Shown here in pieces: positions 2,172 to 21,029 of a stretch of DNA of 27,555 nucleotides. The notes under the pieces were generated by a model that saw only the letters and a program-made list of their open reading frames with translations, was not told where the DNA came from and searched no databases. Both the position numbers and the translations under genes were made by a program. Source of the DNA: a virus (Duplodnaviria > Caudoviricetes); the IMG/VR virus record IMGVR_UViG_3300050331_000011, positions 1-27,555 of that record; one strand, 5' to 3'. Position 1 is the stretch's first letter. Each line of letters opens with the position of its first letter.

Positions 2172-2749
2172 TGGCCTGGCGCGGATTGGAAGTGCTGGGG
2201 CTGCTGCAAAACGGCCCCAAGTCCCGGCGGGATATCGTCGAGGCCCTTGGCGTGACCTACGACGCCGCGCGCGACGTGTGCAAGCGGCTTGCTGCGCGCG
2301 GCCTGGTGAACACGTCCGCAGGCCTTAACCAGATCACAGAGGCCGGAGCCCAGGCCCTGGCGGGCGGTGCGGAAGTCGTTTCCGGCCCTGCCAAGGGCGG
2401 CTGTGTGGAGCGCTACAAGGGCAGTACCCGCGCCAAGGCGTGGCGGGTGTTGCGCATCCGCCGCAAGGCGGACCTGGAGGACCTGCTGCCCCTTGTGCTG
2501 GATGCGGAGGCCACCAAGAAGGACGAGGCCAAGGCCCGGCGCAACCTGGAGTGCTACCTGCGGGCGTTAACGCTCGCGGGCTTCCTTCATGAGCTGCCCC
2601 GGCGCGGTGGTGCGGTTCGCTGGCTTCTGGTGAGCGATACCGGCCCCTGCGCCCCGGCCTGGAACAAGGCCCAGCGCACCGTCACGGACGCCAACACGGG
2701 CGAGGTGCACGCCTTGCCGAAGGCCAAGGAAGCGGCCAGCCATGACTAA
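2171..2749 (+). CDS. Winged-helix DNA-binding protein (putative)
   Basis: ATG at 2171 overlaps the upstream TAA (TAATG); N-terminal wHTH-like pattern (RRDIVEALGVTYDAARDVCKRLAARGLV). Confidence 0.65.
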   Translation: MAWRGLEVLGLLQNGPKSRRDIVEALGVTYDAARDVCKRLAARGLVNTSAGLNQITEAGAQALAGGAEVVSGPAKGGCVERYKGSTRAKAWRVLRIRRKADLEDLLPLVLDAEATKKDEAKARRNLECYLRALTLAGFLHELPRRGGAVRWLLVSDTGPCAPAWNKAQRTVTDANTGEVHALPKAKEAASHD

Positions 2750-3050
2750 GGACTGGCTGACGCTCTTGTCCGAGGCCGTGGGCGTCTCCAACCGCGCCGA
2801 AGTGGCTAAGGATCTGGGCGTCTCCCGCACAGCCGTCAGCCTGCTGCTGCTCGGCAAGTACCCCGGCAAAACCGACCGCATGGCCGCCCGCATTCTGGAA
2901 CGCTACTCCAGCGTGGAATGTCCGCACACTGGCAAGAGCGTGATGCCAGACCATTGCCGGAAGTTCACCGGGCAGGTGCCCAGCTCAAGCCCCGCCGCTC
3001 TGCGGCAATGGCGCGCCTGCCGGGCCTGCCAGCACAACCCCGAAGCATAA
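2742..3050 (+). CDS. HTH transcriptional regulator with Cys-rich C-terminus
   Basis: AEVAKDLGVSRTAVSLLLLGKYPG HTH pattern; CPHTG..C..CRACQH possible Zn site. Confidence 0.75.
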   Translation: MTKDWLTLLSEAVGVSNRAEVAKDLGVSRTAVSLLLLGKYPGKTDRMAARILERYSSVECPHTGKSVMPDHCRKFTGQVPSSSPAALRQWRACRACQHNPEA

Positions 3051-3072
3051 CCCCGAAACCAAGGAGAACGCC

Positions 3073-3270
3073 ATGATTCACGAGAAGATCAGCAACGTGG
3101 CCACGGTACTGCGCGACCTGCGCCAGCATGTTGGCGAAGAGGAAGGGGAAGTCATGCGCCAGGCGTGCATCGTGCTGACCGCCGCCGCCGAGGACGTGCA
3201 GAATTTGGAAACCCTGCTGCCCATCGCCGGAACCGGCGAGGCGGCACAACACGCACCCGCACAAGCGTAG
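3073..3270 (+). CDS. Small hypothetical phage protein
   Basis: AAGGAG SD, 65 aa, fits operon spacing. Confidence 0.7.
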   Translation: MIHEKISNVATVLRDLRQHVGEEEGEVMRQACIVLTAAAEDVQNLETLLPIAGTGEAAQHAPAQA

Positions 3271-3281
3271 GAGGACGCACC

Positions 3282-3881
3282 ATGCTTGAAGGATACATGG
3301 AAAACGCCCAGGGGCACCAGGTGCCGCTGGGCCAGGTCCAGGAGATTGATCGGGCAAGGCACGAGTTGGTCATGGAGAAGGTGGCCAAGGTCCAGGCCAT
3401 GCACGAGGAGCTGTCCAAGCTCAAGGCCGAACTCATGGCCGACGTGGGCGCGTTCGTCTCCCTCTCCGCCGAGCGGTATGGAGCCAAGGTGGGCGGCGAC
3501 AAGGGCAACGTGACCCTGCTGTCTTACGACGGCAAGTACAAGATCGCACGCCAGGTGGCCGAGCACATCACCTTTGACGAGCGCCTCCAGGCGGCCAAGA
3601 GCCTGATTGACGAGTGCCTGCGCGATTGGACCAAGGACAGTCGCAGCGAAATTCAGGCGCTCATCGACTAAGCCTTCCAGGTCGATAAGGAAGGCCGCAT
3701 CAGCACCACCCGCATCCTGGGTCTGCGCCGCCTGGACATCACCGACGAGCGCTGGCGCACGGCCATGCAGGCCATCGGCGACTCCATCCAGGTCACGGGC
3801 ACCAAGTCTTACGTCCGCATTTACAAGCGCCAGGACAGCGGGGCCTACACGGCCATTTCGCTGGATATGGCGGCGATTTGA
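3282..3881 (+). pseudogene. DUF3164-family Mu-like phage protein interrupted by an in-frame TAA at 3669-3671
   Basis: SD GGAGG; KGNVTLLSYDG and FDERLQAAKSLIDEC motifs; the same frame continues after the stop as AFQVDKEGRISTTRILGLRRLDI..DERW..KSYVRIY to TGA 3881. Confidence 0.85.
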
Positions 3882-3886
3882 TCTAA

Positions 3887-3947
3887 GCGAAACCGCCCTG
3901 CGGGGCGGTCGCCGGGGCGTGGTTGCCCCGGCCTGATGAGCAGCCAC
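3887..3947 (+). ncRNA. Hammerhead ribozyme, type II with pseudoknot (copy 1)
   Basis: GC-GAAA-CCGCCC/tgcg/GGGCGG-TC-GCCGGGGC/gtggtt/GCCCCGGC-CTGATGA-GC-AGCCAC; intact core; predicted cleavage after C3910 (GUC); 3' AGCCAC can pair with loop I GTGGTT. Confidence 0.92.
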
Positions 3948-3963
3948 AACACACGGAGCATCC

Positions 3964-4416
3964 ATGAAGATCGAATCCCGCCGCACCCTGTTGGCAAAGG
4001 TCCACATCGGAGCCAAGGCCCTGGGCCTGGACGATGACACCTACCGCGACATGCTGGAGGCCCTCACCGGCCAGCGCTCGGCCGGGAAGCTCTCGGACAA
4101 GCAACTGGTGCTGGTGCTGTCCGCCATGCGCAAGCGCGGCTGGAACGATGAAGACCCGCGCCCGGCGCGCAAAAAGCCCAAGCCCCGCGCCACGCCGGGC
4201 ACCGCGCCTTTGCTGGACAAGATCGGCGCGCAGCTGGCCGACTCCGGGCGACCCTGGGCCTACGCCGAGGGCATGGCCAAGCACATGTACAAGGTGGAGC
4301 GGCTGGAATGGGCCAAGCCCGAGCAGCTGCGCGGCATCGTGGCCGCATTGACCAAGGACGCCCAACGTCGGGCGAAGCGGGAGGCCAGCCAGGCCGCCCA
4401 GGAGGTGGGCCTGTGA
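3964..4416 (+). CDS. gemA: GemA / Mu gp16 (DUF1018) family protein
   Basis: LAKVHIGAKALGLDDDTYRDMLEALTGQRSAGKLS and ..VERLEW..EQLRGIVAAL family-type motifs. Confidence 0.88.
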   Translation: MKIESRRTLLAKVHIGAKALGLDDDTYRDMLEALTGQRSAGKLSDKQLVLVLSAMRKRGWNDEDPRPARKKPKPRATPGTAPLLDKIGAQLADSGRPWAYAEGMAKHMYKVERLEWAKPEQLRGIVAALTKDAQRRAKREASQAAQEVGL

Positions 4417-4871
4417 GCACCGACACCATGGAATCATTGGCAGTGGACACCCTGCCCGCCACCGCGCGGGAGCTGGCCCAGCTCATCGGCCTGCAAAAGG
4501 CCCTGCGCCTGGTGGAGACCCTGGGCGGCACCACGTTCCCCGTGCCCAAGCGCGAAACCAAGCTGGGCGAGCTGCGCTTCAACGTGCTGGCCGACGTGGT
4601 GGGCGTGGAGGCGGCGGACGCCATGGTGCGCCGCTTCAGCGGCACGGACCTGTACATCCCTCGCTGTGCGGAGGCTTTGCGCAACGCCCGCGACGCCGCC
4701 ATCTGCGCCGAATACGACCGGCTCACCACCAGCATGAGCGGAAACGAAGCCGTGCAGCGCCTGGCTCGCGCGCATCGCCTGTCCGACCGGCATATCTTCA
4801 ACATCCTAAAGCGGATGCCCGTTACCACCGTCAACGTGGGCGGGGCCGTGCAACTGTCACTGCTGGGATAG
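4413..4871 (+). CDS. mor: Mor/C-family transcription activator
   Basis: GTGA overlap with gemA, GGAGGT SD; LVETLGGTTFPVPK, FSGTDLYIPRC, RDAAI, C-terminal HTH LARAHRLSDRHIFNILK. Confidence 0.9.
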   Translation: MSTDTMESLAVDTLPATARELAQLIGLQKALRLVETLGGTTFPVPKRETKLGELRFNVLADVVGVEAADAMVRRFSGTDLYIPRCAEALRNARDAAICAEYDRLTTSMSGNEAVQRLARAHRLSDRHIFNILKRMPVTTVNVGGAVQLSLLG

Positions 4872-4880
4872 CTCCACCTT

Positions 4881-4940
4881 GCGAAACCGCCCACACGGGC
4901 GGTCGGCCAGGCGTGGTTGCCCGGCCCTGAAGAGCAGCCA
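4881..4940 (+). ncRNA. Hammerhead ribozyme, type II with pseudoknot (copy 2)
   Basis: GC-GAAA-CCGCCC/acac/GGGCGG-TC-GGCCAGGC/gtggtt/GCCCGGCC-CTGAAGA-GC-AGCCA; predicted cleavage after C4904; one A-C mismatch in stem I. Confidence 0.88.
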
Positions 4941-4950
4941 AAGGTAGGGG

Positions 4951-5145
4951 ATGATGAAACAAATCAACGAAAATGACCGGGTGTTCTCCCGCCGCCATCG
5001 TAGCGGTGAAATCCGCGTGGATGTTGCCGGGAGCAAGGTGCTTTTGGGTCGCGTGATCAAGAAGGACGGCACTCCCGGTCGGGAGGTTATCGTCTCCGTC
5101 GCGGATGTCACTACCCGCTGGCCGTTCCTTCCTGGGGTGATGTGA
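4951..5145 (+). CDS. Small hypothetical protein
   Basis: 64 aa ORF after a purine-rich SD; stop overlaps the next ORF start. Confidence 0.6.
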   Translation: MMKQINENDRVFSRRHRSGEIRVDVAGSKVLLGRVIKKDGTPGREVIVSVADVTTRWPFLPGVM

Positions 5146-5369
5146 GTATGGCCGTCCCCCGCTTTATCGTCGCCCGCGCAGCCGGAGACTCCGTTACCCT
5201 GCGCGACACCGAACGCAAGCGCCTGGCCGTCGTCTTTCTGCGTGATAACAGCTTGCCAAATGACAAGGCAGAAGCCGCCGCCGTGCGTATGGCCGAAACC
5301 TGCGCCCTGGCGTTGAACCAGGTGCATGAGGCGGCCCAGGCCAAGATGCAAAAGGAGGGGGGCAAGTAA
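5142..5369 (+). CDS. Small hypothetical protein
   Basis: GTGA translational coupling, 75 aa. Confidence 0.6.
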   Translation: MSMAVPRFIVARAAGDSVTLRDTERKRLAVVFLRDNSLPNDKAEAAAVRMAETCALALNQVHEAAQAKMQKEGGK

Positions 5370-5384
5370 CTTTGCCCCGGAACC

Positions 5385-5867
5385 ATGGCAGAAAAGCGTA
5401 AAAAATTAGGGTCTATTTTGCTCCGGTTCCGGGGCAAAACGCGCAATTTTGACGTGTTCCCCGCCGAGCAATGGCCGGACCAGCACGAGGCGGACCTCGG
5501 ACTGTACAGGCTGTGTGAATACACCTGGGTTGACGGCAAGCGCCGCGAAAAGTGGTTCAGCATCGGCGGGCAAAAATACACGTTCGTCACCGCCGAAGCC
5601 TTGGGGCAGCTTGTAGCCAAGGGGCTGACGGAACCCGGCTGGCTGGAGGCGCTGGAGCGCCCCGCCCCGAAGTTCAGGACCAAAGATTGGGTGCGCTGGT
5701 ACGGCCCACATTACACCTCGCGGCTGTTTCGGCTCGGCAGCGACCCCTTCCTTTGGCTCGACGGCCAATGGCGTGTGCTTATTTCCGACCTTCGGCTTGG
5801 GCGACAGATGGTGTGCTGCAACGAACTGGTGCCCGTAGACCGCTTGGGGCGGGAGGTGGCGCGGTGA
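5385..5867 (+). CDS. Hypothetical protein
   Basis: 160 aa, aromatic-rich globular composition, in operon orientation. Confidence 0.7.
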   Translation: MAEKRKKLGSILLRFRGKTRNFDVFPAEQWPDQHEADLGLYRLCEYTWVDGKRREKWFSIGGQKYTFVTAEALGQLVAKGLTEPGWLEALERPAPKFRTKDWVRWYGPHYTSRLFRLGSDPFLWLDGQWRVLISDLRLGRQMVCCNELVPVDRLGREVAR

Positions 5868-6052
5868 TGTGGCGCGTGCTGGTGCTTTTCGACGTGCTCA
5901 CTGTCGCCGCGTACGTCTACCGCGAGTGGGGCGAGAGCGCCGCCTGGTTGTCGCTCGCGGTCATGGCCGCTGTGCTTCTGCCCCTTGGCGAAATTGAGCG
6001 GCGGCTGGGTGAGTTGGTGGAGGCCCAGCGCAAGAGGACCGCTAGCAAGTAG
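5867..6052 (+). CDS. Small membrane protein
   Basis: TGATG coupling, GGAGGT SD; two hydrophobic segments (MWRVLVLFDVLTVAAYVY, AAWLSLAVMAAVLLPL). Confidence 0.6.
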   Translation: MWRVLVLFDVLTVAAYVYREWGESAAWLSLAVMAAVLLPLGEIERRLGELVEAQRKRTASK

Positions 6053-6104
6053 CGCCGCCGTATGCTACTCGCTTCCCCGTATCATCAATGAGTGAGGAGG
6101 AAAC

Positions 6105-6689
6105 ATGAAAGAACTGATTCAGATCGCAGTGGGTGTGGTCGGTTTTCTGTTCTTTGGCGCGGCTTTTCTGATGGCTCTTTTCAACTGGAAGAAGTGCCAA
6201 GAGAACATGCGCAAACAGGGATACAACTGGCCTCGGTCCGTTGCCTTGGCCGCTAGTTTCGCGTTTGTGGTCGGCGGCGGATACATGGCGTTGGACGGCT
6301 ACACGGCGCACCAGGCCACATCACCATCCAGCATTAGCAGCATCGAGAAGGCGCAGAAGTACGTCATTGGCACGTGGGTCTATGCCGAGCCACTTGACCC
6401 TCAAAACCAGTACGTTAACTGGTGGCAAAAGTGGGTTGTTAAAGAAGGTGGCGTCATGGATGTGTATATTGCCGAGCCCGCGAGCGACTCCTGGAAAAAA
6501 CCGGAATCCGTACGTTACAACATTATCACTGGAAAGTACCAGGATACAGGCGAACGCTATTACGCTATCCAGGTCACTGGAACGGCACAATTTGCCGTTA
6601 TTCGCCCTGACGGAACTTTGCAGTATAGTATTATGGGCAACGGGGCCGTTCCCATGCGCCGTGGCGACCACAACCCCTTCTCGAAGTAA
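6105..6689 (+). CDS. Membrane-anchored accessory (moron-like) protein
   Basis: GAGGAGG SD; two N-terminal TM segments then a beta-rich domain (IGTWVY); visibly lower GC than flanking genes. Confidence 0.8.
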   Translation: MKELIQIAVGVVGFLFFGAAFLMALFNWKKCQENMRKQGYNWPRSVALAASFAFVVGGGYMALDGYTAHQATSPSSISSIEKAQKYVIGTWVYAEPLDPQNQYVNWWQKWVVKEGGVMDVYIAEPASDSWKKPESVRYNIITGKYQDTGERYYAIQVTGTAQFAVIRPDGTLQYSIMGNGAVPMRRGDHNPFSK

Positions 6690-6697
6690 CTCCGCCC

Positions 6698-6752
6698 ACT
6701 GAACCCCTTCATCCTGTCCCGCCCCCATCTGCCGCCTAGGATAGGCGGCATG
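6698..6752 (+). promoter_or_regulatory. Putative late promoter, copy 1 (Plys-like)
   Basis: ACTGAAccccTTCAtCCTGTCC..tgccgccTAGGATaggcggcATG; repeated at 15752 and 27211; precedes the lysis cassette. Confidence 0.7.
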
Positions 6753-6798
6753 TGGGGGCGGTTTTATTTGCCCCCTGAACCAATCAGGAGGCGACCTT

Positions 6799-7311
6799 AT
6801 GAATCGCAACAAGTCCACCCTGTCCAGGCTGTGTTCGTGGTGTGCCACAAAGGCGCGCGCCGCTTGCGATATCGCCCTTCTTGCGTGCGCGTTGGCCGCG
6901 TGCGTCTTGCTGGGGCTTTGGCGGCTGTGCCACGCCGCTTTGCGGAGCGTGAAGGGCCTGCCAGCCTGGCTGCGCCGCAAATCCCCGCGCATGTCGCTGC
7001 CCACCATCCTGGCCACCGTGCTGGTGCTCGCCGTGGCCGCCATCGCCCCGCACCAGGCTCCGGTGCTCATGTACAAGCTCGGCGGCGTCGCTGCGGGCGG
7101 GTGCCTGGGCTACCTGCTCGACGTGGCGGCCTTCCCCTACGCGAAGCCGTCCGGGTATCTCCGCTTCGACTGGCGCGATGCAGAGAGCTTCGCGGATGAC
7201 GAGCCGGACTACGGCATCGTGCCGGGGTACATGTGGGCTTTTATGTTTGCCTGCCTGCGCCGGGCGGCCATCGTCTGCGCCTGCATGCTGGCCGTTGCCT
7301 TGGCGCTGTAG
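6799..7311 (+). CDS. Putative holin (2/3-TM family)
   Basis: AGGAGG SD; IAPHQAPVLMYKL..GYLLDVAAFPYAKP..RRAAIV motifs; immediately upstream of the endolysin. Confidence 0.82.
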   Translation: MNRNKSTLSRLCSWCATKARAACDIALLACALAACVLLGLWRLCHAALRSVKGLPAWLRRKSPRMSLPTILATVLVLAVAAIAPHQAPVLMYKLGGVAAGGCLGYLLDVAAFPYAKPSGYLRFDWRDAESFADDEPDYGIVPGYMWAFMFACLRRAAIVCACMLAVALAL

Positions 7312-9618: not shown

Positions 9619-10113
9619 ATGGCCCACAAGGACGAGAAGCGCCAGGCCTTGCGCCAGGCCTATGTGTTCGACCGCCTGCCGCTGGAGACTGCGGCGGACA
9701 GAGTGGACGTTCCGCACAGCACGGCGGCGCGCTGGAAGCGCCAGGCGCGCGCGGCGGGCGAGGATTGGGACAAGCTGCGCGCGGCCATGCTGCTGGCGGG
9801 CGAGGGCATGGAGAACGTGGCCCGGCAGATGCTGGCGGACTATGTGGTGCAGCACAAGGCCCTTATGGACGAGATCAACACCAGCCCGGAGCTGGGCGCG
9901 GCGGCCAAGGTGGATATGCTGGCCAGCCTGGCCGACAGCTTCAACAAAACCGTGGCCGCCAGCCGAAAGGTGCTGCCGGAGACGAACAAGCTGGCCACGG
10001 CGTTAACCGTCATCAACCGCCTGTCTGATTTCATCCGCGCGAACTACCCGCAGCACGCGGCGGCGTTCGTGGAGATACTGGAGCCCTTCGGCGACGAACT
10101 GGCCAAGGAGTAG
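9619..10113 (+). CDS. DUF1804 family protein, probable terminase small subunit
   Basis: N-terminal HTH, TAARWK..GEDWDKLRAA, LASLADSFNK..LPE; upstream of the large terminase. Confidence 0.82.
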   Translation: MAHKDEKRQALRQAYVFDRLPLETAADRVDVPHSTAARWKRQARAAGEDWDKLRAAMLLAGEGMENVARQMLADYVVQHKALMDEINTSPELGAAAKVDMLASLADSFNKTVAASRKVLPETNKLATALTVINRLSDFIRANYPQHAAAFVEILEPFGDELAKE

Positions 10114-10116
10114 CCC

Positions 10117-11769
10117 ATGCCCAAGATTCCGGCCAAGTTTGGCACAAAGGACTTCCTCAAGGAGCTGGGCGACCTCGCCTCATCCTTGCGCCAACAGATA
10201 GAGGCCGAGTGCTCCGGCTTCGCGCCGGACCCTGCGGCGTCGAAAGAGCGCAAGGCGCAGGCGCAGAACGACTTCGCGTTCTTCCGGCGCACCTACTTCC
10301 CGCACTACACCAAGTATGGCGATAGCATCCTGCACACCTGGCTGGACGACAACCTGCCGCGCCTGGTGGACCTGCCCGCAGGGCAGCGCCTGGCCGTGGC
10401 CGCCCCGCGCGGCGAGGCCAAGTCCACGGTGGTGGGCCTGCAATTCGTGCTCTGGTGCGGCGTAACCGGGCGCAAGCGGTACATGCTGGAAATTGCCGAC
10501 GCCTTCGAGCAGGCCGCCGCCCAACTGGAGGCCGTCAAGGCCGAGCTTGAGGCAAACCCGCGCCTGGCCCTGGACTTCCCGGAGCACTGCGGCCAGGGCC
10601 GCGTGTGGAACGCGGGCGTCATCATCACCAGCGGACAGGTCAAAATTCAGGCCTTTGGCGCGAACAAACGCATGCGCGGCCTGCGCCACGGCCCGCACAG
10701 GCCGGACCTAGTTATTTGCGATGACCTGGAGAACGACGAGAACGTGAAGAGCCCGGAACAGCGCGACAAGCTGGAGAAGTGGCTGCGCCGCACCGTGCTC
10801 TCGCTGGGCGAAGCGGGCGACACCATGGACGTGTTCGTCATCGGCACCGTGCTGCACCATGATTCCGTGCTCTCCCGCCTGCTGGCCGCGCCCCTGTGGC
10901 GGCACAAGAAGTTCCGCGCCATCCTCACCTGGCCAGACCGCATGGACCTGTGGGATGCCTGGGAAGAAACACTCTTGAACGAGGGCGAAGAGGCGGCCCT
11001 GGCGTATTACGGCGAGCACCTAGCGGACATGGAACTCGGCGCCAGCGTTTCCTGGGCATCCGCCCGGCCCTTGTACAGCCTCATGCTCAAGCGCGCGCGC
11101 GACGGGCACGACGCCTTTGATTCCGAGCAGCAGAACGCCCCCGGCAGCGGCGACGATGCCCCGTTCAAGGTCATCACCTTCTGGGTGGACATTCGGCACG
11201 ACTGGCTGTTCTTCGGCGCGGTGGACCCCAGCCTGGGCAAGAAGGGCAAAAGCCGCGACCCCTCGGCCATCCTGGTGGGCGGCTGGTGCCGCGACACCAT
11301 GACGCTGGACGTGGTGGAGGCCAGCATACGCAAGCGCCTGCCCGACCGCATCATCGAGGACGTTCTGGCCATGCACGCGCAATACCGCTGCCTGCTGTGG
11401 GCCGTGGAGGCCGTGCAGTTCCAGGAGTTCCTCCGCACGGAGCTTATCCGCCGGGCGACCGAGCGCCGCATGGTCATTCCGGCCAAGGCCGTGGTGCCCC
11501 ATGCGGACAAGACCCTGCGCATCGAAAGCCTGCAACCCTATTTTGCCCAGGGGCGTATTCGCCTGCACCCCTCGCAGAGCACGCTCATTGAGCAGTTCCG
11601 CAACTTCCCCCTGGCCGACCATGACGACGGCCCGGACGCAACGCACATGCTGTGGGAAATCGCCGTGGGCGGCTTCACCACCATGGCCTTCGACCCCGTG
11701 CCCAAGGATTCCGGCCCCAACTCGCGCAACCTCTGGAGCGGTACCGATGAAGACGACGACGATTATTGA
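10117..11769 (+). CDS. terL: Terminase large subunit
   Basis: APRGEAKST Walker A, RPDLVICDDLEND Walker B, VIGT motif, nuclease acidic residues GAVDPS and HDDGPDA. Confidence 0.92.
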   Translation: MPKIPAKFGTKDFLKELGDLASSLRQQIEAECSGFAPDPAASKERKAQAQNDFAFFRRTYFPHYTKYGDSILHTWLDDNLPRLVDLPAGQRLAVAAPRGEAKSTVVGLQFVLWCGVTGRKRYMLEIADAFEQAAAQLEAVKAELEANPRLALDFPEHCGQGRVWNAGVIITSGQVKIQAFGANKRMRGLRHGPHRPDLVICDDLENDENVKSPEQRDKLEKWLRRTVLSLGEAGDTMDVFVIGTVLHHDSVLSRLLAAPLWRHKKFRAILTWPDRMDLWDAWEETLLNEGEEAALAYYGEHLADMELGASVSWASARPLYSLMLKRARDGHDAFDSEQQNAPGSGDDAPFKVITFWVDIRHDWLFFGAVDPSLGKKGKSRDPSAILVGGWCRDTMTLDVVEASIRKRLPDRIIEDVLAMHAQYRCLLWAVEAVQFQEFLRTELIRRATERRMVIPAKAVVPHADKTLRIESLQPYFAQGRIRLHPSQSTLIEQFRNFPLADHDDGPDATHMLWEIAVGGFTTMAFDPVPKDSGPNSRNLWSGTDEDDDDY

Positions 11770-13369
11770 CCGGTTCAAGGCGGGCTTGGGCGGCCTATTC
11801 CGCAAAGGCCCGGCCGAGGAAATGCAGTCTGAGGCCCTGGCCCTGCTGCGGAGCGAGTTTTTGGCCAGCCTCACGGGCGGGCTCACCCCGGCCAAGCTGA
11901 ATCACATCCTGGCCAACGCGGACGCGGGCGACATCGGGGATATGTACCGCCTGTTCGCGGACATCGAAGACCGCGACGAGCACATCCACGCCGAGCTTTC
12001 CAAGCGCCGCCGGGCGCTCCTTGGCCCGCAGTGGAGCATCATGCCCGGCAAGGGCACGGGCACGGCCAAGAACCCGGATAAGCGCGCCATGGCCATTGCC
12101 GAGGCCGTGCGCGAGCAGTTTGACAGCATACCGGACTTTGAGGACATGGTGCTGGACCTGGCCGACGGCATCGGCCACGGCTTTGCCGCGCTGGAAATTG
12201 AATGGGGCTTTGACGGCCGCGCCCACGTGCCCGTGGGCCTGCACCACCGGCCGCAGACCTGGTTCCAGCTGCTGCCCCCGCAGTTCGGCGGCGACGGCAA
12301 CAGCTTGCGCCTGCGCGACGGCAGCATGGAGGGCCTGCCGCTCCAGCCCCTGGGCTGGGTGCTGCACCGCCACCGCAGCAAGTCTGGCTGGCTGGCCCGC
12401 TCCGGCCTGTTCCGCGTGCTGGTGTGGACCTTCTTGCTCAAGGGTTACGCGCGCGGCGACTTTGCCGAGTTCCTGGAGATCCACGGGCTCCCCCTGCGCG
12501 TGGGCACCTATCCGACCACGGCCACCAAGGAGGACAAGGCCGCCCTGAAGCGCGCCATCCAAGCCATTGGCCACGACGCGGCGGGCATCATCCCCGATGG
12601 AATGCTCATCGACTTCAAGGAGGCGGCCAAAGGCAGCGAGAAGCCCTTTGAAGCCATGTTGGCGCACTGCGAGCGTGGCCAGAGCAAGGCCATCCTGGGT
12701 GGCACCCTCACCAGCCAGGCCGACGGCAAGAGCAGCACCAACGCCCTGGGCAAGATTCATGACGAGGTGCGCCGCGACATCATGGCCAGCGACGCCCGGC
12801 AGATCGCCAGCACCATCACCCAGCAGCTGCTCATGCCCCTGGCTGTGCTCAACCAAGGCGTGAGCGACCCGGCCTTGCTGCCGTGGTTCAAGTTCGACGT
12901 GAGCGACCCGGCGGATTTGGGCGAGCTGGCCGAGGCCCTGCCCAAGCTGGCCGAGTGCATGCGCATCCCCGAAGCCTGGGCGCATGAGAAGGCGGGCATC
13001 CCTCTGCCCGAGGGCGATGAACCCGTGTTGCGCGTGGCTGGCCAGGCGCAGGAGCCGCCGTTAAACGGCAAGCCCAAGCCCGCGCCCCTCACCGCCGCGC
13101 TAACGGCTGGTGACGGCCAGGCAGGCTTTCCCGACCAGGACGCCCTGGAGGCAGCCACCGTGCCGGAAGCCACGCTGCAACGCATCATGGAACAACTGAC
13201 GGGCAGCCTGGTGACGGAGCTGAAGGACGGCAAGACGCCGGACGAGCTGTTGGCCGCGCTGGCCAGCCACTACCCGCGCATGGAGACCCGCGACATGGAG
13301 GAGCTGCTGGCGCGTGCCATGTTCGTGTCCGAAGTGTGGGGCCGCGTTTCGGCCCAGGGCGAGGAGTAA
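11747..13369 (+). CDS. Portal protein (DUF935 / Mu gp29-like)
   Basis: Start 11747 preferred over 11501; DFAEFLEIHGLPLRVGTY, SKAILGGTLTSQADG..STNALGKIHDEVR motifs. Confidence 0.92.
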   Translation: MKTTTIIDRFKAGLGGLFRKGPAEEMQSEALALLRSEFLASLTGGLTPAKLNHILANADAGDIGDMYRLFADIEDRDEHIHAELSKRRRALLGPQWSIMPGKGTGTAKNPDKRAMAIAEAVREQFDSIPDFEDMVLDLADGIGHGFAALEIEWGFDGRAHVPVGLHHRPQTWFQLLPPQFGGDGNSLRLRDGSMEGLPLQPLGWVLHRHRSKSGWLARSGLFRVLVWTFLLKGYARGDFAEFLEIHGLPLRVGTYPTTATKEDKAALKRAIQAIGHDAAGIIPDGMLIDFKEAAKGSEKPFEAMLAHCERGQSKAILGGTLTSQADGKSSTNALGKIHDEVRRDIMASDARQIASTITQQLLMPLAVLNQGVSDPALLPWFKFDVSDPADLGELAEALPKLAECMRIPEAWAHEKAGIPLPEGDEPVLRVAGQAQEPPLNGKPKPAPLTAALTAGDGQAGFPDQDALEAATVPEATLQRIMEQLTGSLVTELKDGKTPDELLAALASHYPRMETRDMEELLARAMFVSEVWGRVSAQGEE

Positions 13370-13370
13370 C

Positions 13371-13631
13371 ATGAAGCTGGAGCTTGAAGACCTCACCAAG
13401 GATGAGCTGATCCGCGTGATTCGGAAGTTTGCATGGCTGCACGCAAGCCAACGAGACTTGCTGTTTGTTCGGTGGGACACCTTGACGAAACGGGCGGACG
13501 CGCTGTTGGGGGAAAGCATCAAGGCGGGCAATGCCGGAGACTGGAAGCTCGCCGATAAACGATATGGCGAGTACGAGAAAGTGCAGAAAAGGGCCGACGC
13601 CGTGTACGCCGCCGGTATGGGGCAGATGTAG
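13371..13631 (+). CDS. Small hypothetical helical protein between portal and MuF
   Basis: GAGGAG SD, 86 aa, fills the gap exactly, lower GC than neighbours. Confidence 0.7.
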   Translation: MKLELEDLTKDELIRVIRKFAWLHASQRDLLFVRWDTLTKRADALLGESIKAGNAGDWKLADKRYGEYEKVQKRADAVYAAGMGQM

Positions 13632-13633
13632 CC

Positions 13634-14990
13634 ATGGCCATCCCTGAAGGCGTCTCCCTCTCCTTCGCCATGAGCCTGCCGCCCAAGGACGCCATCAGCT
13701 ATCTTGAGTCCAAAGGGGCCAAGATCACGTTCAACTGGCATGAGGTGTGGCAGGGTGCCCAGGCCAAGGCCTTCACCGTGGTGGGCGTGGCCCGCATGGA
13801 CGTGCTGGAGGACATCCGGGGCGCGGTGAAGCAGGCGCTGACCGAAGGCCGGACGCAGAAGATGTTCGCCAAAGACCTGGAGCCCGTGCTGCGGGCCAAG
13901 GGCTGGTGGGGCAAGCGAACCGAGATCGGCGCGGACGGCAAGGAACGCCAGGTGCAAATGGGCAGCCCGGCCAGGCTGAAGCTCATCTACCGCCAGAACA
14001 TGCAGACCGCCTACATGGCCGGGCGCTACAAGCAAATGCTGGAGAACGCCGACAACCGCCCCTGGTGGCGCTACGTGGCCGTGCTGGACCAACGCACCAG
14101 ACCCGCGCACCGGCTGCTGAACGGCCGAACCTTCCGCTTTGATGATGCGTTCTGGTCTAGCCACTACCCGCCCAACGGCTGGGGCTGCCGCTGCCGCGTG
14201 CAGGCGCTCTCGGACATGGGCCTGGAGCGCGAGGGCATCACCCCGGAGAGCGGCGAGGGCAACATGCGCACGCGTGACGTGGAGCTTGTGGACCGCCGCA
14301 CGGGCGAGGCCACCATGCGCCAGGTCACGGGCTACAAGGTGGGCACCGCCCCGGACGCGCCCACGGTGTGGACCGACCCCGGCTTTTCGTACAACCCCGG
14401 CGCGGCGGCCTATGGCCTGGACATGGAGGCCGCCCGGCGGCTCTCCCTGGTGCAGGACACGCAGCTGCGCGCCCAGGCAGTGCAGGCGCTGAACGGCAAC
14501 CCGGCCCGGCGGCAGGCCTGGGAGAACTTCGCGCGCGAGGTGCTGAACACCCGGCGCGGCGGCACGGCCCAAGCCCAGGTGGTGCACTTCATGCGCAACG
14601 CCGTGGCCCAGGCTGTGACCGAAGTCGGCGGCGAGCCGGTGCAGGTGGTCACGGCCAGCGCCAGGCGCATCTTGCACGCGGACAGCGCCAAGCACCGCCG
14701 CATGGGCACGGCCCCGGCGCAGGAGGATTTGCTGCGCCTGCCGCAGCTGCTGGACGAAAGCAACGGCCGTGCTGTGGGACGCGGACAACGCGAACCTGTT
14801 TTACGAGTGCCCAACGAAAGAGCCCGGCAAGGTGCTCAAGGTGGTGGTGGACGTGCCCATGCGTCCCAAGGACGCCAAGGGCCTGGGCAAGCTGGGGCGC
14901 TTTGACGCCGTGGTGAACGTGATGGAGGTGTTGTCTTCGGACATCCCGCTTGGCGGGCAGTCGCAGTACAAAAGACTTTGGCCAAAATAA
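13634..14990 (+). CDS. MuF (gp30) head morphogenesis protein with C-terminal putative PBECR-like nuclease domain; one extra base at 14757-14759
   Basis: MuF motifs RLKLIYRQN, DQRTRPAH, YPPNGWGCRCRV, DPGFSYNPG; removing one A joins LPQLLDE to ATAVLWDADNANLFY..KVVV, ending at TAA 14990 (451 aa). Confidence 0.8.
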
Positions 14991-15084
14991 TAACCCCGTG
15001 GGGGCGGACTTGCACCGCATACCGCGAGGAGGTTTCCCTCCCCCCGCCCGATTACTACCAGCTTCGGGTACGCCCACAGGGTCA
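14991..15084 (-). ncRNA. tRNA-like structured RNA without anticodon loop or encoded CCA
   Basis: Minus strand: 12-bp closing stem, UA, CCCGA/AGCTGGTAGTAA/TCGGG D-like arm, GGGGAGG/GAAA/CCTCCTC arm, GCGG/TGCAAGT/CCGC T-like arm. Confidence 0.65.
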
Positions 15085-15089
15085 AGGAA

Positions 15090-15118
15090 AAAATACGCAT
15101 GATTGTAATTGAAGTCAA
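15090..15118 (-). promoter_or_regulatory. Putative sigma70 promoter for the tRNA-like RNA
   Basis: TTGACT (15118-15113), 17-nt spacer, TATTTT (15095-15090); predicted +1 near 15083, at the 5' end of the closing stem. Confidence 0.6.
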
Positions 15119-15683
15119 TATAGACAGCGTGAAAAATGGACTCACGCGCCTAGCCGCGCTTGGCCAGAACATGACGCCGCTGACGCGCGACCTGGCGGAA
15201 ATCTTGAAGGGTGGCGTGGACCGCGCCTTTGCCGACGAGAAAGACCCGGCCACGGGCGAGAAGTGGCACCCGCTTTCTCCGGCCACCCTGGCCAGGCGCG
15301 CCAAGGCCGGACACACCGGCTCTATCCTCCAGGTGACGGGCCAGCTAGCCAGCAGCATACAGACGGAGCACGGCCCGCACCACGCTGCCGTGCTCACCAG
15401 CGACGTGCGCGCCCCCACGCACCAGTTCGGGGCCAAGAAGGGCAGCTACGGCACGGCCAAGCGCGGCACGCGGGGCACGGGCCGCCGCAACCCGCGCAAC
15501 TACACCGCGCGCGGCGGGGCCACCGTGGGCGGCTGGCTCTCCGGCCGGGCGCAGGGCGGCACCATGCCCTTGCCCTGGGGCGACATCCCGGCACGGCCCT
15601 TCCTGGGTATCGGCAAGCCGGAGGAAGCGGAAATTGAGGAGAGCCTTTCTAGGGCCGTGCGGCGGGCGCTGGCAGGGGCATAG
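15099..15683 (+). CDS. Virion morphogenesis protein (Mu gpG/gp31)
   Basis: DPATGEKWHPLSPAT, ILQVTGQLASSI, HQFG, IPARPFLGI motifs. Confidence 0.9.
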   Translation: MIVIEVNIDSVKNGLTRLAALGQNMTPLTRDLAEILKGGVDRAFADEKDPATGEKWHPLSPATLARRAKAGHTGSILQVTGQLASSIQTEHGPHHAAVLTSDVRAPTHQFGAKKGSYGTAKRGTRGTGRRNPRNYTARGGATVGGWLSGRAQGGTMPLPWGDIPARPFLGIGKPEEAEIEESLSRAVRRALAGA

Positions 15684-15751
15684 GGCGCGCGCTGGCGTCG
15701 CGTTGGTTCTAACGCCACTCTAACGCCCAAAGCGGCCGGGACTGGCCGCCT

Positions 15752-15807
15752 ACTGAAACCCTTCATCCTGTCCCGCCTCCCCCTGCCACCCTAAAACGGG
15801 TGGCATG
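15752..15807 (+). promoter_or_regulatory. Putative late promoter, copy 2 (PI-like)
   Basis: ACTGAAacccTTCAtCCTGTCC..tgccacccTAAAACgggtggcATG directly before the protease gene. Confidence 0.7.
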
Positions 15808-16995
15808 AAGCGCAAGCCCACCGACACCACACACAACGTCGCCAGCCTGGCCATGCCCCTTTCGGGGGGTGTGGCCTTGGCTGTTGGCGTTTCGGCAGAG
15901 GACATGCCGCCGGGCATGAACGCCCAGCTCTTCCCCGACGGCAGCTTCGCCGCGCGCGATGGCCGCCCGGCCAGCATCACCGAGGGCGCGCTCACTGCCT
16001 GGCTCATGGATGCGGACATTGCCGCCGCCGTGATCGCCAAGGTTGAGGCGCGCGCGTCCCAGCTGCCCGTGGACTATGAGCACCAGCTGCTGCTGGCCAA
16101 GCAAAACGGCAAGCCCGCGCCCTCCTCCGGGTGGATAACCGCCGTCAGCTACGTGCCCGGCCGGGGGCTCTTCGCCGCCGTGGACTGGAAGGCCCGCGCC
16201 CGCGAGCACATCTCGGCCGACGAATACCGCTACATTTCCCCCGTCTTCCGCTTCGACATAGCCACCGGCGCGGTGCTCGAAATCTTGAGCGTCGCGCTCA
16301 CCAACAACCCGGCCCTGGACGGCATGGACGCCGTGGCCCTGGCCGCGCTGTTCCCTTCAACCACTACCGCAACAACGGAGGACAACATGGACGAACTTTT
16401 GGAACGGCTGCGCTGGCTGCTCAACCTGCCCATCACCGCCACGGCGGAGGAGATCGTGGCGCAGCTGGACAAGCTCAAGGCGCAGATCACCGGCGGCGAC
16501 GCCGCAGCCGCGAGCGTGGACCTGCTGGCCCTGCTCAAGGACCAGAAAGAGAAGGATGATCAGTTGGCCGCCCTCACCAGCCAGGTGGCCGGGCTTTCCG
16601 AAGGGCCGGACCCGGCCAAGTTTGCGCCCGTGGCCGCGCTGGCCAGCTTGCAGCAGGCCAACGCCGAGCTAAAAACCCAGGTGGCGCAGCTGACCAGCGG
16701 CGCGCAGGCCACCAAGGTGGACACGCTGATCCAGGCCGCCCTGGCCGATGGACGGCTCACCGCTGGCCTGGAGCCCTGGGCGCGCCAACTGGGGGCCAAG
16801 GACGAGGCCGCGCTTACCACCTTCCTTACCGCCGCCGCGCCCGTGGCCGCGCTCGGCTCCATGCAGAGCAGCGGGCTGCCCGGCGGCGCTCCCCCGGCCA
16901 GCGGCACCGCCGCCCTTTCGGCTGACGAAGCCTACGCCGCCGACCAGTTCGGCATGACTCCTGAAGAATACAAGAAAGCCAAGGAGGCCAAGTAA
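15805..16995 (+). CDS. Prohead protease (Mu gpI) with C-terminal scaffold
   Basis: LPVDYEHQ, EYRYISPVF, VALTNNPALDGM motifs; Ala-rich helical C-terminus. Confidence 0.92.
   Translation: MKRKPTDTTHNVASLAMPLSGGVALAVGVSAEDMPPGMNAQLFPDGSFAARDGRPASITEGALTAWLMDADIAAAVIAKVEARASQLPVDYEHQLLLAKQNGKPAPSSGWITAVSYVPGRGLFAAVDWKARAREHISADEYRYISPVFRFDIATGAVLEILSVALTNNPALDGMDAVALAALFPSTTTATTEDNMDELLERLRWLLNLPITATAEEIVAQLDKLKAQITGGDAAAASVDLLALLKDQKEKDDQLAALTSQVAGLSEGPDPAKFAPVAALASLQQANAELKTQVAQLTSGAQATKVDTLIQAALADGRLTAGLEPWARQLGAKDEAALTTFLTAAAPVAALGSMQSSGLPGGAPPASGTAALSADEAYAADQFGMTPEEYKKAKEAK
16387..16995 (+). CDS. Internal in-frame scaffolding protein (Mu gpZ-like)
   Basis: GGAGG SD before the in-frame ATG (MDELLERLRWLLNLP), after a Thr-rich linker. 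Confidence 0.65.
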   Translation: MDELLERLRWLLNLPITATAEEIVAQLDKLKAQITGGDAAAASVDLLALLKDQKEKDDQLAALTSQVAGLSEGPDPAKFAPVAALASLQQANAELKTQVAQLTSGAQATKVDTLIQAALADGRLTAGLEPWARQLGAKDEAALTTFLTAAAPVAALGSMQSSGLPGGAPPASGTAALSADEAYAADQFGMTPEEYKKAKEAK

Positions 16996-17901
16996 ATGGC
17001 AATCGTAACCCCTGCGCTCATTGCGGCGCTGTTCACCGCGTTCAAGGCCGAATACCAGCGCGTGTTCGGGGAAACCCCGTCCAGCTGGGCCGATGTGGCC
17101 ACCCTGGTTCCGTCCAACACCAAGAGCAACACCTACGGCTGGCTGGGCAAGTTCCCCAAGCTGCGCGAGTGGGTGGGCGACCGCCAAGTGAAGGCCATGG
17201 CGGCCCACGGCTATTCCATCACCAACAAGAAGTATGAAGGCACGGTTGGCGTTGACCGCACCGACATGGAAGACGACCAGCTGGGCATCTACAAGCCCAT
17301 GTTCGGCGAGATGGGCCGGGAGGCCAAGACGCACCCGGACGTGCTGGTGTTCGAGCTGCTCAAGGCTGGCCTCACCACGCTCTGCTACGACGGGCAGAAC
17401 TTCTTCGACACCGACCACCCCGTGTACCCCAACGCGGACGGCACCGGCGTGCCCGTCACCGTGTCCAACTATCAGGAAGGCACCGGCGCGCCCTGGTACC
17501 TGCTGGACACCAGCCGCACTTTGAAGCCGGTCATCTTCCAGGAGCGCACCAAGCCCGAGCTGGATTCCCTCACGGACCCCAAGGACGGCTCTGTGTTCTT
17601 GCGCGACGAATACCTGTTCGGCGTGCGCTACCGCTGCAATGTGGGCTTCGGTTTCTGGCAGCTGGCCTACTGCTCCCGCGCGGAGCTTACCCCGGAGAAC
17701 TTCAACGCGGCCTACGCGGCCATGAGCAGCTTCAAGTCCGACGGGGAACGCCCCCTGGGCGTGCGGCCCACGCTGCTGGCCGGTGGCCCCACCCAGCGCA
17801 CCAAGATTCTGGAAATCACCAAGGCCACCCGCCTGGAGAACGGCAAGGACAACATCAACCAGGGCGTGGTTGACGCCCTGGTGACGCCCTGGCTGGCGTA
17901 G
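16996..17901 (+). CDS. Major capsid protein (Mu gpT)
   Basis: TYGWLGKFPKLREWVGDR, CYDGQNFFDTDHPV, GFGFWQLAY motifs. Confidence 0.95.
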   Translation: MAIVTPALIAALFTAFKAEYQRVFGETPSSWADVATLVPSNTKSNTYGWLGKFPKLREWVGDRQVKAMAAHGYSITNKKYEGTVGVDRTDMEDDQLGIYKPMFGEMGREAKTHPDVLVFELLKAGLTTLCYDGQNFFDTDHPVYPNADGTGVPVTVSNYQEGTGAPWYLLDTSRTLKPVIFQERTKPELDSLTDPKDGSVFLRDEYLFGVRYRCNVGFGFWQLAYCSRAELTPENFNAAYAAMSSFKSDGERPLGVRPTLLAGGPTQRTKILEITKATRLENGKDNINQGVVDALVTPWLA

Positions 17902-19602: not shown

Positions 19603-21029
19603 ATGGCCAGCGCAAACATCCAGTTCGACGAAATCCGCGCGTCCATCAGGAAGCCGGGGAAATACTTCGAGTTCAACACAAAGCTGGCAGTTCGCACCCT
19701 GCCGACCAATGACCAGCGCGTTTTGCTCATCGGCCAGCGCCTGGCCAGCGGCTCCGTGGCGGAGCTGACCGCCGTGCAAGTCTTCAGCGACGCGGAATGC
19801 CGCCGTCAGCTTTGGCGAGGGCTCCATGCTGCACCGCATGGTGCGGGCGGCCATCAAGGCTTACCCGTACATCGACATCACCTGCATCGCCCTAGATGAT
19901 GCCGCCGCAGGAATTGCCGCCACGGCAACCGCCACCCTTACCGGCCCGGCCTCGGGCTCGGGTGTGGTCACGTTGCGCGTGGGCACGGAGCTGGTGCAGT
20001 TGGCCGTGGCCAGTGGCGACACCGCCACCGAGATCGCGGCGGCGCTGAAGGCCCAGGCCGACCAGCAGACCGACCTGCCCGTGGCCCTTGCGGCGGCGGC
20101 GGGCGTGCTCACCATCACCGCCCGGCACAAGGGTGCGCACGGCAACGGCATCAAACTGTCCCCCAGCAGCACCGCCGCAGGCGTCACCCACTGTGGCCAC
20201 GGCCATGGCAGGCGGTCAGGTGGACCCGTCCATAACCCGACCCGCTGATCTGGTGGCGGACTCTGGCCACAACCTGCTCATCACCCCGTACACCGACCAC
20301 GTGAACCTAGTGGCCCTGCGCGACCACCTGGACTTCGTGGGTGGCGCGCTTGAGCAGCGCGGGGCCTGCGGCGTGTACGCCCTGGTGGGCACCCTGGCCC
20401 AGGCCACCACCCTGGCCGGGAGCGTGAACAGCGGGCGCATCACCGGCGCGGCCATCAACGGCGTGTACCGCCTGCCCTGGGAAGTGGCTGCGGGCGCGGG
20501 GGCCGTGGTGGCCAGCGAGGAAGACCCGTCCCGGCCTTTGAACGGCTTGCCCATCAAGGGCATGGACGTGCCGGATACCGGCTTCCGCTGGACGCGCACC
20601 GAGCAGGAAGTGCTGTTGAAAAACGGCGTCATGCCCCTGGAGGTGGGGGCGGACGGCACCAGCGTGCAGATCGTGCGCGCCATCAGCACCTACACCAAGG
20701 ACGGCCAGGGCATCCAGGACGTTGACCTGCTGGACCTGACCACCATCCGCACGCTTGATTATGTGCGCAAGGCCGCGCGCACGCGCCTGGCCCTGCGCTT
20801 CCCGCGTGAGAAGTTGACCGCCCGCACCGAGGCCGCCGTGCGTGGCGAGGTGCTGGACGTGCTCTTCAAGCTGGAGGCGCTTGAAATCATCGAGAACGTG
20901 GAGGCCAATAAGGACAAGCTCATCATTGAGCGCGACCTTCAGGACGCCAACCGCCTGAACATCCGCATCCCCGTGGACGTGGTCAACGGCCTGCACATCA
21001 TCGCGGGCGTTATCGACCTGTACCTGTAA
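19603..21029 (+). CDS. Tail sheath protein (Mu gpL), split into three ORFs by extra bases near 19798 and 20188
   Basis: SIRKPGKYFEFNT N-terminus; FGEGSMLHRMV; EEDPSRPLN, IVRAISTY, LDLTTIRTLDYVRKA, DVVNGLHIIAGVIDL. Confidence 0.88.

What the first reader, a model, noticed from the sequence alone, without database searches (positions are those of the whole stretch)
3887..4945. Twin hammerheads bracket exactly gemA + mor: self-excising, possibly circular regulator mRNA
Seen: two same-strand hammerheads flank precisely the gemA and Mor/C activator genes; double cleavage releases nt 3911-4904 (994 nt) with both ORFs and their SDs. Established: hammerhead products carry 5'-OH and 2',3'-cyclic phosphate ends, the substrates of RtcB-type ligases and of the reverse reaction, and tandem ribozymes generate RNA circles in retrozymes and viroid-like RNAs. 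Seen: joining C4904 to G3911 would rebuild a full chimeric hammerhead (stem III of copy 2, stem I and pseudoknot of copy 1). Inference: the phage may uncouple the stability or translation of its late-gene activator mRNA from the transposition transcript, a ribozyme-based timer for the replication-to-late switch. I know of no description of this arrangement, but cannot search.
Basis: partly seen in the sequence, partly recalled or inferred. Interest (0 to 1): 0.9.

Follow-up and report, generated by a model that had tools for sequence, protein, structure and literature searches.

The report
Hammerheads punctuating Mu-like phage early operon
Two hammerhead-type RNA motifs flank the gemA and mor genes of a Mu-like phage and likely cut its early message into separate linear gene units, a layout known in prophages since 2011; in relatives the second motif tracks the small genes after mor, so a dedicated circular timer RNA is unlikely.

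Summary
Two intact type II hammerheads (Rfam RF02276) flank gemA and mor, with predicted cuts after C3910 and C4904.

- The layout is published. Perreault 2011 describes clustered hammerheads flanking prophage gene blocks, proposes mRNA processing, and found no circles.
- These ribozymes mark gene junctions generally: 223 of 245 follow a stop codon, 186 of 245 precede an SD and start codon, and the flanking genes vary widely.
- A hammerhead somewhere upstream of gemA is common (12 of 13 close, 57 of 76 distant loci). One directly after mor is intact in only 7 of 13 close and 0 of 60 distant loci, and it tracks the accessory genes downstream.
- A circle is unlikely. Stem II has only 2 bp, end pairing is not above controls, a circle would rebuild the cleaving fold, and RtcB was found in 1 of 22 likely host-genus genomes.

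Best reading: constitutive punctuation of the early operon that would release a linear 994-nt gemA-mor mRNA. A stability effect on timing is untested. The scan noted similar hammerhead layouts on other DNA.

The parts
3285..3881 (+). DUF3164 gene upstream of hammerhead 1, interrupted by an in-frame TAA at 3669-3671; stop TGA at 3879-3881
   Evidence: (PF11363 profile positions 1-125 and 127-193 in two pieces)
3885..3949 (+). Type II hammerhead 1: stem II 3887-3888/3940-3941, GAAA 3889-3892, stem III 3893-3898/3903-3908, predicted cut after C3910, stem I 3911-3918/3925-3932, CUGAUGA 3933-3939, pseudoknot 3919-3924 with 3942-3947
   Evidence: (73.5 bits)
3911..4904 (+). Predicted 994-nt released RNA (5'-OH on the stem I hairpin; stem III hairpin and cyclic phosphate at the 3' end)
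   Evidence: inferred from the cut sites
3964..4416 (+). gemA (Mu gp16-like), 150 aa, SD GGAG at 3955-3958
   Evidence: (PF06252, E 3.8e-25)
4413..4871 (+). Mor/C-family activator, 152 aa; GTG start overlaps the gemA stop; SD AGGAGG at 4400-4405; one Mor match per record in 5 of 5 related records
   Evidence: (PF08765, E 8.6e-16)
4879..4943 (+). Type II hammerhead 2: stem II 4881-4882/4934-4935, GAAA 4883-4886, stem III 4887-4892/4897-4902, predicted cut after C4904, stem I 4905-4912/4919-4926 (one A-C mismatch), CUGAAGA 4927-4933, pseudoknot 4913-4918 with 4936-4941
   Evidence: (67.4 bits)
4951..6052 (+). Accessory small-gene block led by hammerhead 2 (ORFs 4951/4954-5145, 5148-5369, 5385-5867 = phrog_18900, 5864-6052)

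Best explanation
The two motifs are intact type II hammerheads at gene junctions of a Mu-like phage early operon, and they likely cut constitutively, which would divide the long message into linear units, one of them the 994-nt gemA-mor mRNA. Each ribozyme is one copy of a repeated unit: stop codon, hammerhead, SD, start codon (shown). Cutting would leave the upstream gene its stop codon and a 3' hairpin, and give the downstream genes a 5'-OH end on a stable hairpin about 50 nt before the start codon, like an engineered RiboJ leader (geometry shown; effect on stability and translation inferred). Hammerhead 1 leads gemA-mor; hammerhead 2 leads the accessory block that this clade carries after mor (association shown). 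The exact bracket is likely a by-product of two neighbouring units rather than a device built for gemA-mor, and the product is likely linear.
For: Junction anatomy: of 245 distinct intact copies, 223 have the stop of a 50-aa or longer ORF within 25 nt before, 186 have SD plus start within 35 nt after, and 171 have both; random positions give 12%, 19% and 3%. The cut lies 20-58 nt after the stop and 43-65 nt before the start. Flanking proteins fall in 84 upstream and 94 downstream clusters (DUF2786, HU, Gam, DUF3164, DUF6874, mostly unknown); gemA is downstream of 26 copies and mor upstream of 8. A hammerhead directly after mor is intact in 7 of 13 close loci and 0 of 60 distant loci in 20 lineages, and in 0 of 21 host-family loci with mor in view. 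All 9 relatives carrying the accessory block have a downstream hammerhead (8 intact, 1 dead); 0 of 6 without the block have an intact one. A third copy brackets one unrelated gene in 4 close relatives. Covariation. In vitro cutting of 2-kb prophage clusters (PMC3088659) and in vivo cutting of type II hammerheads near phage-like genes in Desulfovibrio vulgaris (PMC8782182) are published. Uncleaved RiboJ mRNA is modelled as decaying faster (PMC7536230).
Against: Cleavage and half-lives were not measured for this phage. gemA is the commonest downstream gene (26 of 186), though the sample was largely collected with gemA. Every hammerhead in the host-family loci where gemA was also in view lies upstream of gemA, so gemA-mor is nearly always in a separated last segment, which fits selection for uncoupling it. 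Hammerhead 2 can equally be read as supplying a 3' end for mor when the operon continues. L162 has a hammerhead right after mor outside the close set. The 6 loci without the block are about 4 independent cases. In L005 the block is kept with a dead ribozyme, and the window phage has broken genes, so present selection on its copies is not shown.
Confidence: 0.6

Rival explanations
1. The ribozymes are selected specifically to free the activator message. Hammerhead 1 uncouples gemA-mor from the transposase transcript, hammerhead 2 supplies a 3' end where the operon runs on, and the longer-lived linear RNA would help time the switch to late transcription.
For: Hammerhead upstream of gemA in 12 of 13 close loci (the 13th starts inside gemA) and 57 of 76 distant loci, within 300 nt in 30 of 76; present in DMS3 one small gene before gemA-mor. 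gemA and mor overlap and are not separated by a ribozyme in any of the 89 loci. One Mor/C match in each of 5 related records. mor is the last gene of the Mu early operon (PMC9936078), which would make a 3' ribozyme unnecessary elsewhere.
Against: In distant loci the nearest upstream copy is 10 to 1985 nt from gemA, often with other genes between, and 19 of 76 have none in the fetched stretch. Most inter-hammerhead segments hold other genes (54 of 61). Cores are canonical, with no sign of a regulatory input.
Confidence: 0.2
2. The 994-nt piece is ligated into a circle by the reverse reaction or a host ligase, and serves as a stable activator mRNA.
For: The ends are 5'-OH and 2',3'-cyclic phosphate (established chemistry) and the junction would rebuild a full hammerhead. 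In the window a 5-bp GCUCC-GGAGC helix could hold the ends together (-6.3 to -7.2 kcal/mol).
Against: Stem II is only 2 bp; its chimeric form has pairing probability 0.10 in the linear piece and 0.009 in the circle (no pseudoknot term). End binding in 8 bracketed loci averages -5.2 against -4.7 +/- 2.2 kcal/mol for cross-locus pairs. In the circle stems I and III re-form (0.69-1.0), so it would likely recut. RtcB (PF01139) in 1 of 22 genomes of the genus of G002, completeness not given. Perreault 2011 looked for circles from such clusters and found none.
Confidence: 0.05
3. The copies matter mainly as 60-nt DNA repeats that let single accessory genes be gained and lost by recombination; cutting is tolerated and nearly neutral for gemA-mor.
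For: L007 differs from the window by one DUF2786 gene plus one extra hammerhead, and its two flanking copies are identical; the L104 and L004 pairs are 95% and 88% alike. Stop codons abut stem II (distance -1 to 1 in 147 of 223). Dead copies follow mor in L005 and L294.
Against: Invariant catalytic cores with compensatory stem changes, and 24 copies with divergent stems in G141, point to selection on the RNA fold, not on sequence identity. The window's two copies are only 83% alike.
Confidence: 0.15

Closest known systems
Clustered hammerheads flanking genes or short gene blocks in prophages (Perreault et al. 2011, PMC3088659; passages and Discussion part 1 read)
   Same: Same-strand hammerheads around a short gene block in a prophage early region; flanked genes vary; processing into short mRNAs proposed; circles considered.
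   Different: The block here is gemA plus the Mor/C activator; in the passages read, their tested examples were from Clostridium, Azorhizobium and Agrobacterium (ardA). The stop-hammerhead-SD-start geometry and the link of copy 2 to the downstream block are quantified here.
Type II hammerheads of Desulfovibrio vulgaris (Olzog et al. 2021, PMC8782182; passages and section 7 part 1 read)
   Same: Same Rfam class, near phage-like genes, in a relative of the likely host; two copies about 310 nt apart; cleavage seen in vivo.
   Different: No function was assigned in the parts read, and those parts do not name gemA or mor.
Enrichment of self-cleaving ribozymes near Mu-like phage genes and near each other (Roth 2014 and Weinberg 2015, as summarised in PMC10085705, and PMC4604425; originals not read)
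   Same: Mu-like phage context and neighbouring ribozymes.
   Different: Stated there as an association of unknown cause; the gene lists could not be read.
Retrozymes and viroid-like circular RNAs (PMC6765202, passages)
   Same: Two same-strand hammerheads about 1 kb apart that would release a monomer with ligatable ends.
   Different: No LTRs of about 350 bp; the centre encodes two core phage proteins; 2-bp open stem II; no fold that silences the ribozyme in the circle.
RiboJ-type ribozyme insulators (engineered; PMC7536230, passages)
   Same: A hammerhead cut leaves a defined 5' hairpin end shortly before an SD.
   Different: Natural, type II, and between genes, so it also sets the 3' end of the upstream gene.

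Membership tests
Type II hammerhead ribozyme (RF02276) | Core CUGANGA, GAAA and UH cut triplet intact | tested here: met
Type II hammerhead ribozyme (RF02276) | Stems I and III closed by loops, stem II open | tested here: met
Type II hammerhead ribozyme (RF02276) | Pseudoknot between loop I and bases after stem II | tested here: met
   6 and 5 bp in the window; 98.5% of cells paired in 33 copies, 2 of 4 pairs with two-sided changes
Type II hammerhead ribozyme (RF02276) | Self-cleavage | not testable with these tools
   published for same-class copies in D. vulgaris; not measured here
Clustered prophage hammerheads (Perreault 2011) | Two or more same-strand copies flanking a gene or short block in a phage operon | tested here: met
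Clustered prophage hammerheads (Perreault 2011) | Flanked genes are not constant across genomes | tested here: met
   84 upstream and 94 downstream clusters; 7 of 61 segments are gemA+mor
Retrozyme / viroid-like circular RNA | Hammerheads within long terminal repeats of about 350 bp | tested here: not met
   the repeat is the 60-nt ribozyme only, 83% alike, with unrelated flanks
Retrozyme / viroid-like circular RNA | Non-coding central region | tested here: not met
   gemA and mor fill it
Retrozyme / viroid-like circular RNA | Circle folds so that the ribozyme is silenced | tested here: not met
   stems I and III re-form at 0.69-1.0 in the circular fold (prediction only)
Retrozyme / viroid-like circular RNA | Circular RNA accumulates in vivo | not testable with these tools
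   needs RNA from an induced host
Retrozyme / viroid-like circular RNA | Primer-binding site, polypurine tract and target-site duplication | not tested
   not examined

The most novel reading that the evidence does not exclude
Mu-like phages use hammerheads to cut the gemA-mor activator message out of the transposition transcript and give it its own long half-life (linear, or in this clade partly circular), and this sets the timing of the switch to late genes. It would be a first demonstrated regulatory job for a natural bacterial hammerhead.
Probability: 0.12. Interest if true: 0.75.

Novelty: new member of a known kind. Interest (0 to 1): 0.3.

Why it matters
The purpose of phage hammerheads is still open in the papers read (PMC6765202; PMC10085705). 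This locus does not add a new kind of system, but it sharpens a test. The survey shows a fixed stop-hammerhead-SD-start geometry, and related copies lie in laboratory phages such as DMS3, D3112 and MP22; in DMS3 the copy is one small gene before gemA-mor. A core-inactive mutant there would show directly whether cutting changes activator level or lytic timing.

Tried and rejected
RNA evidence: no RNA holder listed. Eight runs were laid, all as contigs. No back-joint from 4904 to 3911 was listed, but the two true RNA runs laid nothing and four others are probably DNA, so this says nothing either way. The 3945-4963 joint in X19 is likely a relative's copy 2 mapping to copy 1.

SD release by cleavage: in the window and L008, CUCCACCUU before copy 2 can pair with the downstream SD (-10.4 kcal/mol). 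Across 241 flank pairs the cognate mean is -5.06 against -4.98 +/- 0.12 shuffled, and 30 of 100 shuffles are as low. With longer context the predicted SD accessibility was the same before and after cutting. Rejected as a general mechanism.

A different ribozyme class or a degenerate hammerhead closing the bracket in distant phages: Rfam found only Hammerhead_II (plus one Proteo-phage-1 hit) in the 89 loci. An nhmmer profile recovered 106 of 106 Rfam hits and found no extra copy in those loci.

Promoter and terminator scans gave nothing useful (1 promoter-like site and 6 terminator-like sites in window 2600-7200 against 0.5 and 4.7 by chance; none on the + strand after mor in DMS3). Where the early transcript ends is therefore not known.

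One search used a mis-spaced pattern and found nothing; one search is the corrected scan.

Literature: searches listed no paper on a hammerhead pair around gemA-mor. Weinberg 2015 was not held, and its gene lists may name gemA or mor. Perreault's 11 text supplements had no hit for Desulfovibrio, gp16, Mor or DUF1018; its Figure 3 could not be seen. PMC11124144 and PMC13725137 were read as passages and added nothing on this layout.

Full report
Setting. The window is a 27.6-kb virus record of a Mu-like phage: transposase, B protein, small early genes, gemA, a Mor/C activator, then lysis, head and contractile-tail genes. The closest named GemA relatives are from Humidesulfovibrio (81% identity), so the host is likely a sulfate reducer of that group (inference).

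Observation. Rfam gives exactly two hits in the window, both type II hammerheads on the + strand, at 3885-3949 (73.5 bits) and 4879-4943 (67.4 bits). Cores, three stems and the loop I pseudoknot are intact; stem II has 2 bp. Predicted cuts after C3910 and C4904 release 994 nt holding gemA and mor with both SDs; the two genes overlap by GTGA. In 33 related copies of similar length, 14 of 20 pairs change on both sides and 98.3% of cells pair.

Is the bracket conserved? I collected 113 gemA or mor loci, collapsed them to 89 at 95% DNA identity, scanned all 89 with Rfam and mapped gemA and mor. In 13 close loci (GemA at least 70% identical), 12 have a hammerhead before gemA; the thirteenth starts inside gemA, and one of the 12 is cut by the contig start. 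Directly after mor, 7 have an intact copy, 1 a dead copy and 5 none. In 76 distant loci, 57 have one or two copies upstream of gemA, the nearest 10 to 1985 nt away. Of the 60 with adjacent gemA-mor and at least 300 nt beyond, none has a copy within 100 nt of mor and one has a copy 575 nt later.

A survey centred on the ribozyme agrees. In the host family 38 of 121 genomes carry RF02276 above cut-off; among 53 loci with hits out of 57 fetched, 21 show the end of mor and none has an intact copy there. Among 80 pattern-matched viral loci (of 130 returned), four have one: three are contigs already counted, and L162 is new, with one small gene inside its bracket.

What the second copy goes with. 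Nine relatives carry the window's accessory block after mor, and all nine have a hammerhead in front of it (8 intact, L097's one gene later; 1 dead). Six lack the block and none has an intact copy. On the gemA-mor tree the absences fall in separate branches, about four independent cases, with half of the inner branches unresolved. In L005 a deletion through a shared GGCGGGGCGGT removed GAAA, and mor now reads on to overlap the next start codon. L294 keeps only the 5' half. Four close relatives have a third copy, so that copies 2 and 3 bracket a single unrelated gene. L007 differs from the window by one DUF2786 gene plus one identical hammerhead.

General anatomy. Of 245 distinct intact copies with enough flank, 223 follow the stop of a 50-aa or longer ORF, 186 precede an SD and start, and 171 do both; random positions give 12%, 19% and 3%. 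The cut lies a median 30 nt after the stop and 49 nt before the start, so no ORF loses its stop or SD. Flanking proteins form 84 upstream and 94 downstream clusters. Of 61 distinct segments between neighbouring copies, 7 are gemA+mor, in a sample enriched for gemA. The extreme case is G141, a phage without a Mu-type head module by PHROG, with 24 copies in 7.6 kb and one ORF in 22 of 23 spacers.

Mechanism. Shown: intact folds, junction geometry, and the link of copy 2 to the downstream block. From the literature: such clusters cut in vitro in 2-kb prophage transcripts and in E. coli (PMC3088659), and type II copies near phage-like genes cut in D. vulgaris cells (PMC8782182). Inferred: cutting here is constitutive; the products are linear; a 5'-OH hairpin end slows 5'-end-dependent decay (RNase E's preference for 5'-monophosphate is recalled; the RiboJ effect is from a passage in PMC7536230); and a 3' hairpin slows trimming. 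The likely job is to give each unit its own stability and translation start. gemA-mor benefits as one unit among many.

Against this reading: gemA is the commonest downstream gene (26 of 186), no ribozyme splits gemA from mor in the 89 loci, and since mor ends the Mu early operon (PMC9936078) the lack of a 3' copy in distant phages is expected under either view. Selection for uncoupling the activator therefore stays open at about 0.2.

The circle. The two ends would be held by a 2-bp stem II (pairing probability 0.10 in the linear piece, 0.009 in the circle, no pseudoknot term). A 5-bp helix with the gemA SD is possible in the window, but across 8 bracketed loci end binding is -5.2 against -4.7 +/- 2.2 kcal/mol for cross-locus pairs. 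A circle would re-form stems I and III and likely recut. RtcB was found in 1 of 22 genomes of the genus of G002; the control rang in 10 of 14 genomes, and completeness was not given. Perreault and colleagues looked for circles and found none. I put the circle at 0.05.

Novelty. The ribozyme class, the Mu-like context and the flanking layout are published. Nine paper searches listed nothing on a pair around gemA-mor, but Weinberg 2015 and Perreault's Figure 3 could not be seen. GemA's function is described as unknown (PMC8705779, passages). Earlier notes of this scan report a hammerhead before mor in another Mu-like prophage and arrays of 12-30 ribozymes in other phages; I did not check them. 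Verdict: a new member of a known kind, interest 0.3.

Noticed in passing
G141 (IMGVR_UViG_3300017605_000570) contig 9932-17520, - strand; loci L146-L148, L331: 24 type II hammerheads in 7.6 kb. 22 of 23 spacers hold one ORF (26-334 aa) whose stop abuts the next copy (-2 to +4 nt), most with a GAGGT-type SD; stems diverge while staying paired. Only 2 of 21 ORFs scanned hit a PHROG family.
   Followed up: partly
window 3285-3881: The DUF3164 gene has an in-frame TAA at 3669-3671; the same letters are in run X1's contig, which may be the source sample.
   Followed up: partly
window 19603-21029: The tail sheath gene is in two pieces in different frames (19603-19899 and 20088-21029). With the DUF3164 stop, this suggests a decaying prophage or assembly errors.
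   Followed up: partly
L005 5866-5947 (same as L001): Deletion through an 11-nt microhomology kills the hammerhead after mor; the mor frame reads through the remnant and its stop overlaps the next start (ATGA).
   Followed up: yes
L007 4831-5000 and L008 4649-4815: Both carry a shared 170-nt stretch, with no obvious gene, between the hammerhead and gemA; it could be a structured leader. No Rfam hit.
   Followed up: no
L006 2606-3611: A second, divergent gemA-mor pair lies 1.6 kb downstream of the first.
   Followed up: no
L011 2128-3447: The 3' half of mor is duplicated around about 1.1 kb of other DNA.
   Followed up: no
window 4872-4880 with 4941-4950; L008 5724-5732: An anti-SD-like tract before hammerhead 2 can pair with the SD of the next gene in these two loci, but the effect is not general.
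   Followed up: yes
L333 4501-4572 (phage DMS3); hits H1-H40: Related sequences lie in cultured phages: D3112, DMS3, MP22, the JBD series, Rhodobacter RC1, Rhodovulum RS1 and several Streptomyces phages (93 records). In DMS3 the match is one small gene before gemA-mor.
   Followed up: partly
L039 1444-1516, L061 2926-2998, L038 3894-3994: Core-variant hammerheads (GCAGAC in place of GCGAAAC in L039; CCGAUGA in L061) and a Proteo-phage-1 RNA right after gemA in L038.
   Followed up: no
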